A stretch of 63,946 nt of DNA, counting the filler. It is 8 parts of 8 records of this genome, joined end to end, with 100 filler letters (N's around TTAATTAATTAA, not from the genome) between each part and the next. Parts side by side here need not be neighbours in the genome. Positions count along the whole stretch, not along the records: positions 1 to 10,372 come from SRR7504441_7482; 7 more parts are not named here. One strand, written 5' to 3'. The notes below the pieces were generated by a model. That model saw only the letters and a list, made by a program, of their open reading frames with translations, was not told the DNA's origin and did no database searches. The translations under genes were made by a program, and so were the position numbers. Numbering within the stretch: the first letter of the stretch is position 1; every line of letters begins with the position of its first letter. This document shows positions 707-55,261 of this stretch, in pieces.

Positions 707-3497
707 CTAGTCAATGTCAGTGATCCTTGGTACGTCCTCTATTGACCGGAATACCTCACGGGCAGTTACATCATCTAACAACGCCTTCCATGGAGTGGAT
801 TGCATGAGACTGTTGGCATTACCGACGATAAGAAGCATCTCCTTGGGCCGTGTAAGTGCCACATTCATCCGCCTGATGTCATCAACAAACCCGATCCCGC
901 CTTGACGGTTGGCCCGCACACACGAGTAGATGACAACGTCCGCTTCTTGGCCCTGGAATGAGTCTACGGTCGCCACCCGGGCCTCGCCAGCCACCCCCCG
1001 CTTGGCAAACAGCGCTCGAATCAAATCCACCTGTCCCTGCCTAAGCCTGCCCGAGGCACCCCCTGACCTGCTGCCTATACGGCGACAGTACCGCGGTGGA
1101 TCCCTGATGTCCCAGCGCTGTCAGCTGTTCAAAGAGCTGCAGCACCGCTTCCGCCTCCGCCTGATTACCCAGCGAAGTGCCGCCACGCTGCTGCTTGCCC
1201 AGCGGCACATCAAAGAACCGGTACCTACCCAGCCACCGGCTCTCTGTTTGTAGCTCGCCCTCCTCCAGCTGAGCCTCATGCGCAGTCTCGCTGAGCCAGT
1301 CGAGAGCGGGCCGACTCTGCAGCTCAGCCGCGTCTCTCAGCATCCCCTGGTAAAAGTAACGGTTTGGGAACTGGCTAATCTCGGGATGCATTCTGTACTG
1401 CACATCCAGCACGCGCACAGGGTGCCCGGTCTGCTGCATCCGCTCGAACAGCGATCTGGCCAGTTTGTGCTCCATCGCACTCTTTGAGAGCACAGTTGGA
1501 GGCAGCTGCTGAGGATCGCCCACCAGCACCACGAGCCGGCAGCCGAGCTGGAGCGGCACCACTGTGGACAGCTCGGAGGCCTGCGCCGCTTCATCCACCA
1601 GCAGTGCTTCAAACGGCCGGCCCGTGTGCAATGTGGCCTTGGCAGCGCTGCTGAGCGTGGTGAAGACCAAGTCCGCCTGGTCCACGAACGATTGCTCTAG
1701 CTGCCTGCTGGCCTGATGTGCCGAAAGCTTCCCCGTCTGGTTCTGGAGCGCCAGCTCTAACCGATGCAGCTCCACTTGCAGCTTGCGCCTGGCCTCAAGT
1801 TGACCAATCGCCAGCCCAGCGTCTAGTTCCTGTCCAGCCATCCCGACAAGCTGGGCCTGCAGAGCATTGAGTCGGCTGCGGCATTGAGCGCGCTGCTCCG
1901 ATAATGCGCGCTGAGGCTGCTGCAGCAACCGCTCGGCCAGCGAGCTGCACTCGACTCGATGCCGCACCTGCTCATCCACCGCCTGCGCCCGTCCGATCCG
2001 TTTAATGTCAGGATTGAACCTCTTGCCTCGCCCGTCTACAAACCCGGCTCGGATCACCCTGCTGAGCAACTCGTCCACCGCAGCGTTGGACGGCGCACAG
2101 ACCAGCACCCGGGGCGGCGGCACGCGCTGGCTGTCTCGGGCCAGTAGATCTGGGCTGAGCTGAGCGACTAGCTTCTCGTGGTGCTGCGAGGCCAGCCCGA
2201 GCTGCAGCTGGTTGAGCACAGCGCAGACGGTGTGTGTCTTGCCTGTGCCCGGCGGGCCCTGCACCAGCACAATCGGCTCGGGACTCGGCCTGTCCCACTC
2301 TTGCCAGACCCGGAGCACCGCCGCCCGCTGCGCCCTGTTGAGCGGTGCCAGCAGCGTAGAGAAAACTATCGGGAGCAGAAGAAACTCCTCGAGCTCCGGC
2401 CGCTCGTAGCACGGCAGCCTGTTCTCAGCCGTCCGTTCGCTCCGGCCGTGGAGCAGGCTGGCCACCACCCGCTGGTCAGCCCCGGAGGCTGGGCCCGTGA
2501 GTGCGATCAGGGCCTCGTGCTCCCTGCTCTCCGTGACCACCGAGCAGCACCGGGCCAGCTGCAGCCTGCTCCCCCGCAGCGCGCAGAGCCGGCGGGCCTC
2601 ACTCATGGTGCCCACCACGCCCACAATGCACGTACCCCTGCTCGATGCCCCGTCGAGCACCAGTCCGTTTAAAGGCTGCTCAGCATTCTCTGCGGGAGCA
2701 CCCTGCGGCTTGCCGGAGGCCGCGAGCCCCTTGAGCTCCTTGGGGTTCATCCGGACGAGCTCGGCCGGTAGCACAGTCCTGTCTGCAAGGTAAGACCGGA
2801 GTTTCGGGCTGTTCTTCAGGTTGCTGATCAGCGAGACTCCCCGGCTCTTGTACTCCTTCAAGTCCGGAGCATACTGGTACAGCTCACGCTCAAGCGCCCG
2901 GGCCGCCCCCTCTGCCCCAAGCGTCTCCCCGAGCTGCCCTCGCATCCGCTCTTGCATCGCGCTCCCCACCCCCCCCGCGCTCCCCCTGGCCGGCTCCGGC
3001 CGAGCAGCCGCGCTCCAGCCGGAAACCTCCACGACGTCGCCGCGTTTGAACCCTGCGCCACGCCCGGCGCTGCGCAGTTCGAGCTCGCACCAGCGCCAAC
3101 TCTCGTCGAGCTCCTTGTAGCTGGCTGCCACCAGCACCAATCCCTCGCGCGGCCCTCGAGCCCCGGACTGCCGCACCGACTGGCAGGCCTCCTCTGCCCC
3201 CCGCTCAGCCGCCGTCGCCCGGGCCGCACCGAGCACGAGAGGTTCAAACACCGCCCGGTAGGTGCCAACCTGCCCCCTCGGCTCAACCCGCCGCGCACCA
3301 CGGCCGTCCACCGAGCTGAAGCTGTCGGGCACCGTCACCAGCGGCGCCGGGCCTCCGCTGTCACGCAGCCGCAGCAGCAGTCCCGGGCCAAACCCTTTGC
3401 CAGGGCCGGCCAGCTTCGGCAGCGGCTGGACCGGCCCGCGGGCGGACCGAGACCGGTTGGTTTTGGGCCGCTTCCGGGCCCGCTGCTCGTCGTTCAT
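707..3497 (-). CDS. Sen1/senataxin-like (UPF1-family SF1) helicase with an inserted TFIIS central-like domain
   Basis: Motifs QGPPGTGKT, VLVCAPSNAAVDEL, DEAAQ, VGDPQQLPPT, QYRMHPEI, TVDSFQGQEADVVI and RRMNVALTR. A 37-nt GT-AG intron (1031-1067) joins PYRQQ|VDLIR. A probable in-frame 42-nt intron (3270-3311) restores FSSVGTYRAVFEPL. Confidence 0.9.
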
Positions 3498-3600: not shown

Positions 3601-4461
3601 ATGGCGGACAGCCCGCCCATTGACCGTCTGAGCGACGACCTGCTGGTGTTCTGCCTGCAGAGCTGCCCTGCCCACGCCCTCGGTCGGCTTGCGGCAACGT
3701 CGGCCCGGCTCGGTCAGCTTGCGCTTTGTCCTGTTGTCTTCCGCGGTCGAGGCCGGCCCGGGCTTAGAAGCCCCGCCCACCTCCACCTGCACGAGACCCT
3801 GGACGCCGAACCGACCAAGATGACCGTCGCCCATTTCCACACCGGCTCGGTCTGTCTAGTCCAGGAGAGTCGGGCCGGGCTCGAGTCCGCGGCGGTGCTG
3901 ATGAAGGCCCACGCCGAGTTGCGCTGCCAGGTTGATGGACACGTCCACCCGGGCGCCCCGGAGCAGGTGGCGGTGGGCTACTCCAGGCGGCGCGCCCGGG
4001 CTGTCGAAAAGGTATTGGTGCAGTGCGGCGTCTGCCCGGAGCGGATCGAGATCACCGGCTGGGGCAAGCGGATCGCCGAGGCCGAGGACTGGGGCTTCTC
4101 GCCGGAGTTCTCCCGGGCCGAGCTCACGTATACGCTGAATGGTCTCACCTTCCCGCCTCGGCGAGCGTTGTGCCTGGTTTTGCCGGAGCCGTCGGATACA
4201 GAGGATGACATGGATGAGACCGGTTCGGACTCTGAAGATGAGGGGCACTACCCCTTGCAAGTGAATTGGACCATACAGCTCTCCCAGATCCAGCAGGTGC
4301 TGGTGGCTCATGCGCAGCAAGTGCTCGGCCAGCTGCAAAACGATACTGATGACCTTGACGATGACTCGGATACATCCGATGATGAATCCGATAGTGATGA
4401 AGAAGAGAGTGAAGATGACAGTGAAGATGACGACAACGTCGAGAGTATGGAGGAGGCCTAG
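3601..4461 (+). CDS. F-box-like + OmpA C-terminal-like domain protein with an acidic tail
   Basis: N-terminus IDRLSDDLLVFCLQSCPAHALGRLAATSARL fits the F-box pattern. The middle HFHTGSVCL...QVDGH...YSRRRARAVEKVLVQCGVCPERIEITGWG fits the OmpA/MotB/Pal pattern. The C-terminus is D/E-rich. Confidence 0.75.
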   Translation: MADSPPIDRLSDDLLVFCLQSCPAHALGRLAATSARLGQLALCPVVFRGRGRPGLRSPAHLHLHETLDAEPTKMTVAHFHTGSVCLVQESRAGLESAAVLMKAHAELRCQVDGHVHPGAPEQVAVGYSRRRARAVEKVLVQCGVCPERIEITGWGKRIAEAEDWGFSPEFSRAELTYTLNGLTFPPRRALCLVLPEPSDTEDDMDETGSDSEDEGHYPLQVNWTIQLSQIQQVLVAHAQQVLGQLQNDTDDLDDDSDTSDDESDSDEEESEDDSEDDDNVESMEEA

Positions 4462-4691: not shown

Positions 4692-6623
4692 ATGGACGGG
4701 CCGGCTGGGGCGTACATCTCGTCGCTGTGCGAGGCACTGGACACGGCGGAGGCCGCCGCTGGGGAGCTACTCCGCAACTTCCAGCCGGGTGCCCTTTCGC
4801 TCGGCCCTGCCAATCCCGCCGGTCGTGCACCGTCGGTCGGGGTGCACGAACGGCTGGATAGGCTGCGTCCCGTGAACGAGCGGCCAGGCGCTGTCCGCGG
4901 GTCCGATCGGCTGCGGGTGGCCAACAGGGAGCTGGAAGCTGTGCTGGATCAGACCGCCAGCGCCCGGCAGCAGTGCTCGAGCGAGATCCAGGCCCTGGAG
5001 CTGGTGCAGGAGGCACGGCGGCAGCTCGAGCCGCGGGCCGCACCGGCGGGCGGGTCTGATCAGACCGACCGGGCGCGGGAAGCGGCGGTCAAGCAGGCGC
5101 GGAGGGATCGGTTGGAGTTGGAGGAGCAGCTGGGCAAGGCTCAGATGGCGGCGATCAGGGAGCGGAACCGGCTGACAGAGGTGGTGTCCCGGATGAGCGC
5201 CGACGACGACCAGCGGCGGTTGCGGCTGGCAGATTTCCGGAGCGGCGGCGCTCTGGGGCTTTTGGAGGCTGCGCGCGACTCGAGCAGGCTGCCTGCCCAG
5301 GCCGAGTCGTCTCCTGAAAAGGATGGGGCAGCCAAAGCCATCATGAAAGCAGCCCAACAGCTCGACGAGGCTGCCCAGGCGGCGGTGGCTTCGCTGACTG
5401 CTGTTGGCTGCCCGGATGCGCCGGGGGGCAATGTTGCGGCGGCTCAGTGTGACGATGCGCTGCTCGAGCAAACCCGGGCCAAGCTAGGGGCCGAGGTGGT
5501 GGCCTGGAAGAGCCGGGCTGAGGCGCTGCAGGCCCAGCTGACTGCACAGGTGGAGGCTGGGCCGCCGCTCGAAGCACGAGCCCAGAGGCTCGAGGCTCTG
5601 CTTCAGACTGAACGAGACAAAGTGCAGCAGCTGACTGGCCAGATGAGCCAGCTGGACCGGCAGCTGGCGGACGACGTGGCAAACTGGCGCGCAAAGTTCG
5701 AGGCGCTTGCCCAGTCGACGGATGAGGCTGAGCGACAGAAGGCAGCGGCCAGCAGACGGGCAGATGAGTTGCAGGCTGAGCTGTCTCTGCACAGGGCGCA
5801 GGCGCAGGCGGACAGAGAGCAAGCGCAAGCCACCACGGGGGCTGTGCAGCAGCACGCAGCGGCAGAGATCTGTCAGCTGAGGGCGGAGCTGGACAGGCGG
5901 CAGGGAATGCCACCAATGCTCGGGCCGTCAGGGGAGCTGCACATGGAGCTTTGCAAGTGGAAGGAGAGAGCGCTCAATGCGGAGGACATCGCGATGGAGG
6001 AGTCGAGGCAGAAGCTGCTGGCCCAGGAGGAAGTTGGCCGGCTACACAAGGAAGTGCTCCGTTGGAAGTCGCTTGCCGAGTCTGGAAGCACCCTGGAGGC
6101 GCCTGGGGCGGCCAGTCAGCCAGAGGCTCCTCTTGTGACCTATGGCACGACTGAGATCGGAGGCAGGCTAGCAAAGCTGGCCAGTAGCTGCCACGAGTGG
6201 CGCTGCAGGGCAATCGACGCGGAGGGCCAGATCCGGGGCTCCGTGCAGGACAGGGTGAACCAAGTGTCGAGCCAGGCAGATCCAACCACGCTCGATCAGG
6301 CAGCGTCGGCTGAAGAGCAAGCGCAGGCCGCTAGTGTGCACGGGGATGGCTCGGGTACAATGAAGCATAATCAGAAGCTCATCGCGAGTCTGGGCGCGCG
6401 GGCGGCGGCCGCCGAGCATGAGTCGGCGCTGCTGCGTCAGGAGCTGGCCAAATCGCTGTTGGATGCAGCCGAGCAGACACTCAAGCCTAAGTCAGCCTCG
6501 AGCCAGGAGACCCAAGAGGGCACCAAGGTGGGGCTGGTGCAGAGTCAGCTCGAGGGTGTGGTGAGCAAGGAGACTCAAGAAAGCATTAAGAACATGCTCG
6601 CTCGCCACGCCAAGAGTGTGTGA
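4692..6623 (+). CDS. Long coiled-coil protein of unknown function
   Basis: 643-aa A/E/Q/R-rich ORF with recurring W(K/R)x(R/K)A motifs, flanked by AT-rich spacers. It may hide small in-frame introns. Confidence 0.7.
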   Translation: MDGPAGAYISSLCEALDTAEAAAGELLRNFQPGALSLGPANPAGRAPSVGVHERLDRLRPVNERPGAVRGSDRLRVANRELEAVLDQTASARQQCSSEIQALELVQEARRQLEPRAAPAGGSDQTDRAREAAVKQARRDRLELEEQLGKAQMAAIRERNRLTEVVSRMSADDDQRRLRLADFRSGGALGLLEAARDSSRLPAQAESSPEKDGAAKAIMKAAQQLDEAAQAAVASLTAVGCPDAPGGNVAAAQCDDALLEQTRAKLGAEVVAWKSRAEALQAQLTAQVEAGPPLEARAQRLEALLQTERDKVQQLTGQMSQLDRQLADDVANWRAKFEALAQSTDEAERQKAAASRRADELQAELSLHRAQAQADREQAQATTGAVQQHAAAEICQLRAELDRRQGMPPMLGPSGELHMELCKWKERALNAEDIAMEESRQKLLAQEEVGRLHKEVLRWKSLAESGSTLEAPGAASQPEAPLVTYGTTEIGGRLAKLASSCHEWRCRAIDAEGQIRGSVQDRVNQVSSQADPTTLDQAASAEEQAQAASVHGDGSGTMKHNQKLIASLGARAAAAEHESALLRQELAKSLLDAAEQTLKPKSASSQETQEGTKVGLVQSQLEGVVSKETQESIKNMLARHAKSV

Positions 6624-53000: not shown

Positions 53001-55261
53001 GCCTGAGGTCGGCTCATCTAGAAATACTAGCTCTGAGCCAGCAATAAGTGCCATCCCAAGACAGACGCGCCGTTTCCAGCCACCAGACAACTTTTTCACA
53101 CGCTGCTCACTGAACTCGCCCAGCTGTAACAATTCAATCCAGTGCGCTGCCTCAAAACTGCAAGCCTCCAAGGGGGTCCCCTTGACCCCTGCATAAAGTT
53201 GGAGAGTTTCGCGCACAGTGAGGTCTTTGTGCAAAATGTCATGTTGCGGGCAGAATCCGATCGATTCCCTGAATTCGTCCATCCTCAGAGTAGAGAGCCC
53301 CTTGTAAGTTGCACCACCGCATGTCGGCTGGATGAGCCCAGTTAGCATCGAGATGGCCGTAGTCTTCCCTGCACCGTTGTGTCCCAGAAGGGCAGTGATC
53401 TGGCTTTCAAGCATCGTGAGGCACAGGTTGTGTACTGCAATAACAGGCTCATGCTGTCCAGCCACCCGGAACTCCTTACGCAGATGGCTCACTTTGAGTG
53501 CAGGCATGGTCAAAGCCTCTTGTGGGAGCGGTTCCTCGATTGTTTCATCAGGCTCAATATCATTGAGCAACCCGGACAGTTCAATCAATTCAGGTGAGTC
53601 CACTTCAAAGTTCTCAGAGCCATCACGGGCACACCAGTATTCTCGCGTGAACAGAAAGCCTGGCGAAAGCTGGGTGCCATACTCTTGAGGCATCACCTGC
53701 CAGCCAATGAGAATCGGATGGCTGGATTCCGACCTTGTCTGCATACCAAGCCAGGAATGTATAGAGCGCGAAATCAAATGCAACCATGCCAAGGAGCCCT
53801 CCAAGGTGCAGCCCATCATCAGTTGGCCAGCCGGTGTTCCACAGGTGCTGGCTCCCCCCAGAGAGCTCCACAGTGCCGAGGATGTTCCACATGTAGCCTG
53901 CAAAGATACAATCAGATGCAGCTGTACAGCTATGGCAGACCAAAGATCATCGGAGGAAAGAGGCATACGAGAGCCTGCCCGATCGCGGCGGTGAGCTTGT
54001 CCAGTGCGATGAAAACCAAGAAAGGCAGAATGTATGCAAAGATGACAGCAGTCGTAGCCATGGTGGCAGTCTGAAACAAGGACAGGGTAGCAGTTGTGAA
54101 TACAATCCCGAGCACCCCCCATAGCCAGGTCAGCCCGACAAGGACTCCATAGCCAGAGTACTCAAACCAAGACCGCGTCATCAGCCCGACTGCCAAGGCG
54201 TATATCCCGACTTGCACCACGTAGAGCACAATGTATGCCATGTAAAACACCCAGGGCTTGCACCCCATGATCCCTAGCAGCTCCTTGCGCTTCTCTTCCT
54301 TATCAGACGCCACCTGCCTCGCGAACATGGCTAGCGCAAAGCCCATCCCTTCCACAAGCGAGAGCGCAGGTCCTGTGCCGGTCGCCTGTGCGGTCGGCCG
54401 GTTGTGATCGCAGTTTGAGTAGCAGAACACTTGGGCGAGCCTGTGGTCGACCTCGCTCTCTGGGGTTGGGAATTGGCTCACCCTCGGCGGCCGGTCGGAG
54501 CACGACGCCGGCAGGCTCCGACCCGGCTCCACCATCGCAGCCAGTTCGCACGAGACTGCGTGCTGCAGCGCCAGAAAGCCAGACTGCACCCAATCCTGGC
54601 CCTGATCGGCTGTCGGGATCTGGGCATCCAGCGCCATCAGCTCGGTTGCGCTATTGCTGAAATCGCCGTAGTCGTTCGGGAACCGGAGCGTGAAGCCTAT
54701 TCCCGCGGGATCTGCTCGATCGAGCAGCACCCCCGCCCACACCTCGTCTGTTCGGGCCGCGTAAGCCGTGTCGAGGTCGTCCACCACCGCCTCGGCGCAG
54801 CTCTGGTTGTGCACCGCCGACTGGTTGTGAGCCGCGGCGACGATCCGTGCAGTGACCCGCTCGCAGAGCTCCTTGGCCTCCGGCTGAAGCGACGGACTGT
54901 CCCGGCTCCTTGGCCTCCGGCTGGAGTACAGGAGGCGCCCGGTGCGCGCCGCCGTTTGCGCGATCGACTCCAGCGGGCGTGCGTTCGTCATCCAGAAGGC
55001 GCCCAAGGAGGCATCGTAGAGACTGTCGGGGTACATGAACTGGACGGGGGTATGCTCGGTGGTGCCGGTCTGGGACAAGACCTGCGAGGAGACTAGCACC
55101 ACGGGGAGTACCACCTCGAGCAGGATCAGCCGCGGGTTGCGCCGCTTGATCGTCAGGTTTTTGCGGATCAGCAGTCGGAACTGGGCCCAGGTCGAGACCG
55201 GATGGGCCTCCCCCTGCTCGGGCAGCAGCGGACGGAAGCCTGGGCCCCCGCCCGAGTTCAT
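50022..55261 (-). CDS. ABCA: Full-size ABCA-subfamily lipid exporter
   Basis: N-terminal QFRLLIRKNLTIKRR. NBD1 LLGHNGAGKTT/LSGGWKRR/LDEPTSGMDP/TTHFMDEAD. NBD2 LLGVNGAGKT/YSGGNKRKLS/LDEPSTGMDP/TTHAMEEAE. Introns 53898-53940 and 53697-53733. Confidence 0.95.

What the first reader, a model, noticed from the sequence alone, without database searches (positions are those of the whole stretch)
2730..2957. TFIIS central (TFIIS-M) domain inserted into a Sen1/senataxin-type helicase
Seen: QERMRGQLGETL...ARALERELYQYAPDLKEYKSRGVSLISNLKNSPKLRSYLADRTVLPAELVRMNPKEL matches the TFIIS domain II pattern (IE..LF....Y..K.RSL..NLK..N..LR..L..G.I.P..L..M...EL). It lies in frame between GFKRGDVVEVS and LNGLVL, apparently in a loop of the helicase 1B barrel. 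The helicase lacks the long Sen1 N-terminal domain. Known: this domain docks on RNA polymerase II in TFIIS, Bye1, PHF3 and DIDO, and Sen1/SETX terminates Pol II transcription and resolves R-loops. Inference: a termination helicase with a built-in polymerase anchor, which could be useful in a genome with very short spacers.
Basis: partly seen in the sequence, partly recalled or inferred. Interest (0 to 1): 0.75.

Follow-up and report, generated by a model that had tools for sequence, protein, structure and literature searches.

The report
Sen1-type helicase carrying a TFIIS-like domain
A marine microbial eukaryote encodes a Sen1/senataxin-type RNA helicase that has the RNA-polymerase-II-docking domain of TFIIS spliced into its beta-barrel; no relative examined has this combination, and it suggests, but does not prove, a helicase with its own polymerase anchor.

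Summary
Window 2730-2957 (minus strand) encodes aa 181-256 of an 818-codon open frame. Pfam TFIIS_M matches it above the curated cut-off: 41.6 bits alone, 37.2 in the whole protein, cut-off 29.2. The best solved-structure matches are the PHF3 TFIIS-like domain and TFIIS.

The host protein is a Sen1/SETX-type SF1B helicase with all core motifs and no SEN1_N domain. The alignment, an AlphaFold model and a structure search place the ~80-aa domain, with two flexible linkers, between strands 3 and 4 of the Sen1-type beta-barrel. The best structural match is yeast Sen1, Z 8.4.

The combination looks unique so far. TFIIS_M was absent from all 150 best relatives and from 120 of 120 listed word-search hits. 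A 2025 review of TFIIS-middle-domain architectures does not mention helicases.

Not shown:
- Transcription of the segment; no RNA run was found.
- The fold of the insert; model confidence there is low.
- Conservation in any orthologue.
- Binding to Pol II.

Verdict: a real new variant of a known kind, of moderate interest.

The parts
1068..3497 (-). Exon 1 of the helicase gene (aa 1-810; ATG at 3497)
   Evidence: ORF 1041-3497. Exon end set at ...SPYRQQ| by frame and by alignment to relatives.
1031..1067 (-). Putative 37-nt GT..AG mini-intron holding an in-frame TAG. Alternative reading: a 1-nt indel in this stretch.
   Evidence: Removing it joins ...PYRQQ to VDLIRALF... in frame, without a gap relative to homologues. 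A 151-nt metagenome contig covers 991-1141 with 0 differences. A similar 43-nt GT..AG break lies in the ABCA gene at 53898-53940. Not confirmed by RNA.
707..1030 (-). Exon 2 (107 aa plus stop): rest of RecA2 with motifs V and VI (TVDSFQG, RRMNVALTR)
   Evidence: Pfam AAA_12, profile 123-194 of 195, E 6.8e-26; motif positions.
3432..3497 (-). Basic N-terminal tail (aa 1-22, RARKRPKTNRSRSAR), possibly a nuclear localisation signal
   Evidence: Sequence only. The function is inferred.
3168..3281 (-). Long N-terminal stalk helix (aa 73-110)
   Evidence: AF2 model helix 18-55, block pLDDT mostly 83-90, falling to about 63-66 at the two ends. Aligns with the F.PL.LEEAR helix of relatives.
3018..3146 (-). 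First half of the 1B beta-barrel, strands 1-3 (aa ~118-160, ending ...GDVVEVSG)
   Evidence: AF2 strands at aa 120-129, 135-143 and 154-160; block pLDDT 63-82 over these strands, highest (78-82) for the second and third. VIA-align to the yeast Sen1 barrel. Alignment A1.
2961..3017 (-). N-side linker (aa 161-179, WSAAARPEPARGSAGGVGS), rich in Gly, Ala and Pro
   Evidence: Sequence; pLDDT below 50.
2724..2960 (-). TFIIS-like domain (aa ~180-258); the Pfam-matched core is aa 195-256 = window 2730-2915
   Evidence: Pfam PF07500, 37.2 and 41.6 bits against a cut-off of 29.2. PDB hits PHF3 and TFIIS. Predicted helices at aa 180-189, 195-209, 213-217, 231-238 and 252-259, at low pLDDT. 14 K/R against 10 D/E.
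2673..2723 (-). C-side linker (aa 259-275, AASGKPQGAPAENAEQP)
   Evidence: Sequence; pLDDT 26-34.
2496..2672 (-). Second half of the 1B barrel and its closing helix (aa 276-334; strands aa 289-295 and 311-319)
   Evidence: AF2 pLDDT 66-90. VIA-align model range 1-285 against Sen1 1143-1304. Conserved RE..AL motif.
1482..2342 (-). RecA1 with prong (Pfam AAA_11, aa 386-672): Walker A GPPGTGKT at aa 414, CAPSNAAVDE 467, DEAAQ 635, GDPQQLPP 660
   Evidence: Pfam E 3.6e-60; motif positions.
1068..1463 (-). First part of RecA2 (Pfam AAA_12, aa 679-810; QYRMHP at aa 700)
   Evidence: Pfam E 4.2e-25, profile 1-123 of 195.

Best explanation
The gene at 707-3497 (minus strand) encodes a ~917-aa nuclear helicase of the Sen1/senataxin (Upf1-like SF1B) family. 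It has intact ATPase and helicase motifs and no long Sen1 N-terminal domain. Its 1B beta-barrel has acquired a complete-looking TFIIS-like domain (TLD, the domain II of TFIIS) of about 80 residues, hung on two flexible linkers of about 17-19 residues between barrel strands 3 and 4. Shown here: the in-frame architecture, the significant TLD homology, the barrel location, and the absence of the insert from every relative examined. Inferred: the TLD docks on the Rpb1 jaw/funnel site of RNA polymerase II, as in TFIIS, Bye1 and PHF3. That would tether the 5'-3' RNA/DNA translocase to transcribing polymerases and exclude TFIIS from them. A paused or backtracked polymerase at a gene end would then be removed, or its R-loop unwound, and not restarted. 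In a genome with ~100-230 bp spacers this would limit read-through into neighbouring genes. In Bye1 a TLD alone binds Pol II too weakly, so the helicase's grip on RNA or DNA would serve as the second anchor.
For: - Architecture: one open frame of 818 codons with uniform coding GC3.
- TLD homology: Pfam TFIIS_M above the gathering score. The best PDB sequence hits are the PHF3 TLD and TFIIS.
- Host family: SETX 2.8e-57 and Sen1 1e-49 are the best PDB matches. Named relatives are 'Helicase SEN1', 'MAGATAMA 3' and 'senataxin'. Motifs I, Ia, II, III, IV, V and VI are present.
- Location: barrel strands flank the insert at pLDDT mostly 63-90 in the AF2 model. VIA-align gives yeast Sen1 8ram_O Z 8.4, rmsd 3.5, 152 residues aligned, model 1-285 against chain 1143-1304. 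C. thermophilum SETX scores Z 7.7 and 7.4. Relatives carry a short or unrelated variable loop at the same place.
- TLD function elsewhere: it binds the Pol II jaw and competes with TFIIS (PMC10111866 and PMC12139180, passages). The TLD+SPOC BORDER proteins protect closely spaced genes (PMC6761125, passages).
- The barrel is already Sen1's polymerase-docking module in yeast (PMC11832416, passages).
- Charge: the TLD helix-3 region (aa 212-240) has 7 K/R against 3 D/E. The RPB1 jaw surface is acidic (PMC12440807, passages).
- Precedent: RECQL5 is a helicase anchored on the jaw at the TFIIS site.
Against: - No orthologue shares the insert, so there is no evidence of purifying selection on it. It was absent from 150 of 150 best relatives. 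Searches with the N-terminal or TLD region found nothing.
- The HMM covers only positions 30-95 of 114.
- In the helix-3 motif Y-K-S-R-G-V-S, the position that is Arg in PHF3, TCEA1 and K. pastoris TFIIS is Val (alignments). That this Arg belongs to the jaw-binding patch is recalled, not tested.
- The TLD part of the model has pLDDT 26-58, so its fold is unverified.
- The jaw and the Rpb3 / RNA-exit site used by yeast Sen1 lie on opposite faces of Pol II (recalled geometry). A jaw-tethered helicase therefore could not pull exiting RNA of the same polymerase in the yeast manner.
- In Bye1 the TLD alone is not sufficient for Pol II association (PMC10111866, passage).
Confidence: 0.5

Rival explanations
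1. The insert descends from a TFIIS-like domain but no longer binds Pol II. It acts as a regulatory or partner-binding module in the 1B barrel. It might tune RNA grip and processivity or recruit another protein, in the way insertions and loops in domain 1B regulate other Upf1-like helicases.
For: The loop between barrel strands 3 and 4 is a hotspot for length variation. P0019 and P0020 carry unrelated ~60-70-aa inserts there, with no Pfam family. One conserved basic position of helix 3 is Val. The HMM match is partial. Sen1's barrel contacts RNA (PMC11832416, passage). A PDB entry title, 6ej5, names a regulatory element in UPF1 (listing only).
Against: The conserved core signature of the TLD is kept (YK.R..SLI.NLK, LR, P..LV.M...EL) and scores above Pfam's curated threshold. 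The long flexible linkers suit a tethered docking domain better than a rigid regulatory plug.
Confidence: 0.27
2. The insert is a recent, lineage-private acquisition with no function, or the locus is an assembly chimera or pseudogene. The domain architecture would then not exist as an expressed protein.
For: The case is a singleton: there is no orthologue with the insert. The gene carries a frame break at 1031-1067 that must be a 37-nt intron or an indel.
Against: The insert is exactly in frame, with the same GC3 as its flanks. It sits in a surface loop that tolerates inserts. All helicase motifs are intact. No flanking repeats or second TLD copy suggest a mobile insertion. The frame break is reproduced letter for letter in a metagenome contig, and a similar 43-nt GT..AG break occurs in the ABCA gene, which fits genuine mini-introns.
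Confidence: 0.13
3. The TFIIS_M match is a chance resemblance of an unrelated helical segment.
For: Single-sequence PDB matches are weak (E 0.0028 to 1.2). NCBIfam TFSII reaches only E 0.077. The Atlas feature search gave no usable hit. The fold is not verified.
Against: Pfam E 1.9e-10, 12 bits above the curated cut-off. All 3 PDB hits at or below E 1.2 are TFIIS_M domains, out of 4 hits at E<=10; the fourth, an Fe-hydrogenase subunit at E 1.5, is unrelated. The independent TFSII model hits the same domain II positions.
Confidence: 0.03

Closest known systems
Sen1 / senataxin (SETX) and plant MAGATAMA 3: Upf1-like SF1B helicases
   Same: AAA_11 + AAA_12 core with all motifs. Best sequence matches are SETX and Sen1. 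The stalk plus beta-barrel superposes best on yeast Sen1 and C. thermophilum SETX. Relatives are named senataxin, SEN1 or MAA3.
   Different: No SEN1_N domain, and the Pfam SEN1_barrel model does not match. A ~115-aa insertion (TLD plus linkers) splits the barrel. None of the 150 best relatives has TFIIS_M.
TFIIS domain II and the TFIIS-like domains of Bye1, PHF3, DIDO, SPOCD1, PPS and plant BORDER proteins
   Same: Pfam TFIIS_M homology above threshold, with the conserved YK.R..SLI.NLK ... P..LV.M...EL core. A Pol II jaw-binding role is expected by homology (PMC10111866 and PMC12139180, passages).
   Different: No TFIIS_N, TFIIS_C zinc ribbon, PHD or SPOC domain. The domain is an internal insertion in an enzyme, not a module of a scaffold protein. 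It has a two-residue deletion after NLK and a Val at one conserved Arg position. The 2025 review of TFS2M architectures has no occurrence of 'helicase', 'Sen1' or 'AAA' (term search of its text).
RECQL5 (SF2 DNA helicase with IRI/KIX module)
   Same: Works-like analogue. It is a helicase anchored on the RPB1 jaw at a site overlapping TFIIS, and it inhibits TFIIS-dependent restart and brakes Pol II (PMC12440807, passages).
   Different: Not homologous. The KIX fold and brake helix lie in a C-terminal extension, the motor is SF2, and it acts on downstream DNA. No termination role is described in the passages read.
Bacterial RNAP-tethered SF1 helicases (UvrD/PcrA C-terminal Tudor)
   Same: The general logic of an SF1 helicase with a built-in polymerase-docking domain. 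This is recalled knowledge.
   Different: Different domain, different polymerase site, and bacteria.

Membership tests
Sen1/SETX-type Upf1-like SF1B helicase | AAA_11 + AAA_12 core with motifs I, Ia, II, III, IV, V and VI | tested here: met
   Pfam AAA_11 3.6e-60; AAA_12 4.2e-25 (exon 1) and 6.8e-26 (exon 2). GPPGTGKT, CAPSNAAVDE, DEAAQ, GDPQQLPP, QYRMHP, TVDSFQG and RRMNVALTR located.
Sen1/SETX-type Upf1-like SF1B helicase | Closer to Sen1/SETX than to Upf1, IGHMBP2, DNA2 or Aquarius | tested here: met
   PDB phmmer: SETX 2.8e-57, Sen1 1e-49, Upf1/Nam7 ~5e-31, DNA2 and IGHMBP2 ~4e-17, Aquarius 4e-6. No phylogeny was built.
Sen1/SETX-type Upf1-like SF1B helicase | Stalk plus beta-barrel (1B) accessory module of Sen1 type | tested here: inconclusive
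   VIA-align best hits are Sen1 at Z 8.4 and SETX at Z 7.7 and 7.4, over 146-152 residues. Z about 8 is borderline by the tool's own note. Foldseek gave no hit at E<=0.001. Pfam SEN1_barrel does not match at E<=1.
Sen1/SETX-type Upf1-like SF1B helicase | Long SEN1_N N-terminal domain (full-length fungal and animal Sen1/SETX) | tested here: not met
   No SEN1_N match, and only ~55 aa precede the helicase domain. The divergent neighbour gene starts 104 nt upstream. The 45 closest relatives scanned also show no SEN1_N, and 41 of the 46 lack it.
Sen1/SETX-type Upf1-like SF1B helicase | 5'-3' RNA/DNA unwinding and Pol II termination activity | not testable with these tools
   Needs biochemistry.
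TFIIS_M / TFIIS-like domain (PF07500) | Match to the family HMM above the curated gathering score | tested here: met
   37.2 bits in the protein and 41.6 bits alone, against 29.2.
TFIIS_M / TFIIS-like domain (PF07500) | Complete domain (helical bundle, ~110 positions) | tested here: inconclusive
   The HMM covers positions 30-95 of 114. A further helix is predicted upstream at aa 180-189. Model pLDDT is 26-58 there, so no fold search was meaningful.
TFIIS_M / TFIIS-like domain (PF07500) | Binds the Rpb1 jaw/funnel of Pol II | not testable with these tools
   No Rpb1 of this organism is available: no genome is held. No complex job was run.
TFIIS proper / Bye1-PHF3-DIDO (TLD-SPOC) families | TFIIS_C zinc ribbon, or a SPOC (with or without PHD) domain, beside the TLD | tested here: not met
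   No such Pfam family at E<=1 in P0001 or in exon 2. The protein shares only the domain and is not a member of those families.

The most novel reading that the evidence does not exclude
The helicase rides on the front (jaw) of an elongating Pol II, not behind it at the RNA exit. From there a Sen1-type 5'-3' translocase could act in trans on whatever the polymerase runs into in a genome with ~100-200 bp spacers. That could be the nascent RNA or R-loop of a polymerase stalled ahead, or of a convergent one. This would be a 'cow-catcher' mode of termination and collision clearance, distinct from the Rpb3-docked RNA-pulling mechanism of yeast Sen1. It would also keep TFIIS off the carrier polymerase.
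Probability: 0.12. Interest if true: 0.85.

Novelty: new variant of a known kind. Interest (0 to 1): 0.52.

Why it matters
How Sen1/senataxin finds and engages Pol II differs between lineages and is only partly understood. In yeast the beta-barrel itself docks on Rpb3, and human SETX appears not to use that surface (PMC11832416, passages). Here evolution placed a different, well-characterised Pol II-docking domain into that same barrel. If the protein is expressed and the domain binds Pol II, it is a ready-made test case of three questions. Does tethering a termination helicase to the jaw promote or change termination? Does excluding TFIIS contribute? How do very compact eukaryotic genomes prevent read-through? 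It would also add a sixth, enzymatic, architecture to the TFIIS-middle-domain superfamily. The claim rests on one sequence from an unidentified marine eukaryote, so its weight is limited until an orthologue or a transcript is found.

Tried and rejected
- RNA evidence: the look-up of sequencing runs listed 10 runs, all DNA metagenomes holding small shares; no RNA holder was listed.
- Read laying on 4 runs: contigs cover parts of 627-2367 and 3187-3221. None covers 2368-3095, so the TLD DNA has no independent confirmation. This is low depth, not evidence of absence.
- Relatives sharing the N-terminal or TLD region:
  - The search for homologous proteins, region aa 60-400, near lengths: none.
  - The same tool with the TLD segment, longer lengths: none at E<=0.01.
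  - The search for related loci in metagenome contigs with aa 56-400: 229 pattern matches, 0 confirmed.
  - phmmer of aa 166-275 against the 150 best relatives: nothing better than E 0.18.
- ESM Atlas: aa 1-420 gave only generic AAA_11 / SMUBP-2 1B clusters below 0.9. aa 175-262 gave no usable hit.
- Single-sequence AF2 of the whole protein: mean pLDDT 38.8, unusable.
- Alignment A2 (sub-region against full-length homologues) was misaligned by MAFFT and discarded. A3, with P0001 added as a guide row, replaced it.
- Foldseek against PDB: no hit at E<=0.001.
- Complex prediction was not run, because no Rpb1 of this organism or any eukaryotic reference was available.
- No whole genome is held. 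Rfam: 0 matches in the window.
- No flanking direct or inverted repeats of note around the insert. No second TLD-like frame in the window.
- PMC2686710 mentions a 'TFIIS central domain' in RIG-I-like helicases. On reading the passages this is the TFIIS-C zinc ribbon at E 0.5-8.6, so it is irrelevant.
- The search of earlier findings: nothing on this genome or sequence.
Full report
**What is in the sequence**

The minus strand of window 1041-3497 is one open frame of 818 codons (P0001). A second frame, 707-1030, follows it and encodes the missing end of the helicase (AAA_12 profile 123-194 of 195, E 6.8e-26). The two frames join without a gap relative to homologues (...LSPYRQQ | VDLIRALF...) if the 37 nt at 1031-1067 are removed. 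That stretch starts GT, ends AG and contains a TAG. A 1-nt indel in the same stretch would also join them.

Two results favour a real mini-intron. A 151-nt contig from a marine plankton metagenome covers 991-1141 with no difference. A similar 43-nt GT..AG interruption joins the two frames of the ABCA transporter gene at 53898-53940. The spliced product would be 917 aa. The window belongs to a compact eukaryotic genome, with genes for MAP65, VPS13, ABCA, Dus and fucosidase. No whole genome is held.

**The observation**

The evidence for TFIIS_M homology is:
- Pfam TFIIS_M (PF07500) matches aa 195-256 at 37.2 bits (E 4.2e-9) in the whole protein, and at 41.6 bits (E 1.9e-10) when the 76-aa segment is scanned alone. 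The curated cut-off is 29.2 bits, and profile positions 30-95 of 114 are covered.
- A single-sequence search of all PDB chains with aa 150-282 returned 4 hits at E<=10. The three best are TFIIS-middle domains: PHF3 2dme (0.0028), K. pastoris TFIIS 5xon_U (0.019) and TCEA1 3ndq (1.2). The fourth, an Fe-hydrogenase subunit at E 1.5, is unrelated.
- NCBIfam's TFSII model touches the same residues at its domain II positions, but weakly (E 0.077).
- Third-position GC stays at 0.76-0.84 through the segment while second-position GC drops, which is the signature of real coding sequence.

**The host protein**

AAA_11 (aa 386-672, 3.6e-60) and AAA_12 make a Upf1-like SF1B core, and all motifs are intact. 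The best solved relatives are C. thermophilum SETX (2.8e-57) and yeast Sen1 (1e-49). Upf1 (~1e-30), DNA2 and IGHMBP2 (~1e-17) lie well behind.

An exhaustive HMMER scan of 1.84 billion representatives found 16,900 relatives, the best at only 44% identity and aligned over the core alone. The nearest are metagenome proteins of 760-1100 aa, called 'senataxin' where a source names them. The word-indexed search adds plant 'Helicase SEN1' and 'MAGATAMA 3'. P0001 has no SEN1_N domain. Only ~55 residues, including a basic KRPK-type tail, precede the helicase domain. A divergent neighbour gene starts 104 nt upstream.

**Where the insert sits**

In a 16-sequence alignment the relatives share three elements: the N-terminal F.PL.LEEAR helix, three barrel strands, and a later block W...G..vT..RE..AL. 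P0001's TLD falls in the length-variable loop after the strand GDVVEVSG. The same loop is short in proteins that match Pfam SEN1_barrel (P0114). In P0019 and P0020 it holds unrelated 60-70-aa inserts.

An AlphaFold2 model of aa 56-400 was built with a 52-row alignment (A3). Mean pLDDT is 63.2, and the elements run in this order:
- a stalk helix at aa 73-110 (block pLDDT mostly 83-90, lower at its ends);
- strands at aa 120-129, 135-143 and 154-160 (block pLDDT 63-82);
- a helical stretch at aa 161-288 of low confidence (pLDDT 26-58);
- strands at aa 289-295 and 311-319, and helices, at pLDDT 66-90.

An all-against-all structural search (48,161 chains) ranked yeast Sen1 from the Pol II pre-termination complex first: Z 8.4, rmsd 3.5 Å, 152 residues aligned, model 1-285 onto chain 1143-1304. 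C. thermophilum SETX came next at Z 7.7 and 7.4, ahead of generic barrels at Z<=6.9. So 285 model residues span 162 Sen1 residues, which means a ~120-residue insertion inside the Sen1-type barrel.

Foldseek gave the same families on top, but none at E<=0.001. By the tool's own note Z~8 is borderline, so I rate the barrel assignment as well supported by three concordant lines, not as proven.

**Anatomy of the insert**

The insert has three parts:
- an N-side linker, aa 161-179 (WSAAARPEPARGSAGGVGS);
- the TLD, aa ~180-258, with five or six predicted helices;
- a C-side linker, aa 259-275 (AASGKPQGAPAENAEQP).

The TLD keeps the family's core signature (YK.R..SLI.NLK, LR, P..LV.M...EL). It has a two-residue deletion after NLK, and a Val where PHF3, TCEA1 and K. 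pastoris TFIIS have Arg. The helix-3 region is basic, with 7 K/R against 3 D/E. There is no TFIIS_C, SPOC or PHD domain.

**How unusual it is**

TFIIS_M was found in none of the 150 best relatives:
- 0 of 45 at E<=1e-4;
- 0 of 46 at E<=1e-5;
- 0 of 24, 0 of 24 and 0 of 11 at E<=1e-3.

It also appears in none of the precomputed Pfam lists of the 120 listed hits, out of 395, of the word-indexed search. Searches seeded with the N-terminal or TLD region found nothing.

In print, four full-text searches turned up no TFIIS-middle-domain helicase in the listings, and I opened only the most relevant papers. The search terms were: TFIIS + Sen1 + helicase + 'central domain'; TFIIS_M + helicase; Bye1 / TFIIS-like domain / jaw / Rpb1 (at least three of the four terms); and PF07500 / TFS2M / 'TFIIS central domain' / 'TFIIS domain II'. 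A 2025 review of TFS2M architectures lists five TFS2M-bearing proteins and contains no occurrence of 'helicase', 'Sen1', 'senataxin' or 'AAA' (PMC12139180; term search and passages). I could not query InterPro architectures, so rare unannotated cases may exist.

**Mechanism**

Established knowledge, from passages read:
- The TLD is the Pol II-binding domain of TFIIS. In Bye1 and PHF3 it occupies the same Rpb1 jaw site and competes with TFIIS.
- In Bye1 the TLD alone does not suffice for association with Pol II.
- Plant TLD+SPOC BORDER proteins promote 3' pausing and protect closely spaced tandem genes.
- Yeast Sen1 docks through its beta-barrel on Rpb3 near the RNA exit and pulls the transcript.
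- RECQL5 is a helicase anchored on the jaw at the TFIIS site.

My best reading (confidence 0.5) is that this protein is a Sen1-type translocase tethered to Pol II through its TLD. The helicase's nucleic-acid grip would supply the second anchor, and TFIIS would be excluded. That would bias paused polymerases at gene ends toward removal, which is useful where spacers are ~100-230 bp.

There is a caveat. The jaw and Rpb3 lie on opposite faces of Pol II (recalled geometry, not computed here), and the linkers are only ~17-19 residues. The yeast-type pulling geometry and jaw docking therefore probably cannot coexist on one polymerase. The helicase may instead act from the front of its carrier, or in trans on a neighbouring polymerase; this is the novel case (probability 0.12).

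Rival explanations:
- a repurposed or regulatory insert that no longer binds Pol II (0.27);
- a private, functionless or artefactual insertion (0.13);
- chance similarity (0.03).

A conceptual parallel noted earlier in this scan is a bacterial Upf1-like helicase with a PcrA-type RNAP-binding Tudor domain (e1-2691257). I did not check it, and part of it later fell.

**Verdict**

This is a real, in-frame, so far unique fusion of two well-known modules at a mechanistically suggestive place, so it counts as a new variant of a known kind. It rests on a single sequence. There is no transcript, no orthologue, no verified fold for the insert and no binding test.

Noticed in passing
window 1031-1067 (-) and 53898-53940 (-): Two very short GT..AG interruptions (37 and 43 nt), each with an in-frame stop, restore the reading frames of the helicase and of the ABCA transporter. 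The genome appears to have mini-introns of ~40 nt. No RNA confirmation.
   Followed up: partly
window 3601-4461 (+): The divergent neighbour, starting 104 nt from the helicase ATG, encodes a 286-aa protein with a bacterial-type OmpA-family domain (Pfam E 5.5e-9) followed by a long Asp/Glu/Ser-rich acidic tail. This is an odd combination for a eukaryotic nuclear gene.
   Followed up: no
whole window: GC content alternates between ~0.49-0.58 and ~0.64-0.69 in 2-kb bins. In the helicase gene GC3 is 0.62-0.94. The high-GC blocks probably mark coding regions with very GC-rich third positions.
   Followed up: no
alignment A1, loop between barrel strands 3 and 4 of relatives P0019 and P0020: Other short senataxin-like helicases from metagenomes carry unrelated 60-70-aa inserts, with no Pfam family, in the same barrel loop. 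The loop seems to be a general insertion hotspot in this subfamily.
   Followed up: partly
protein P0032 (3467 aa, relative): A giant relative combines two Upf1-like helicase cores with bromodomains (Pfam Bromodomain E 4.8e-16). It is another chromatin- or transcription-linked accessory domain on this helicase family.
   Followed up: no
window 4692-6623 (+): A 643-aa Ala/Glu/Gln-rich ORF that looks like a coiled coil, with no Pfam family.
   Followed up: no
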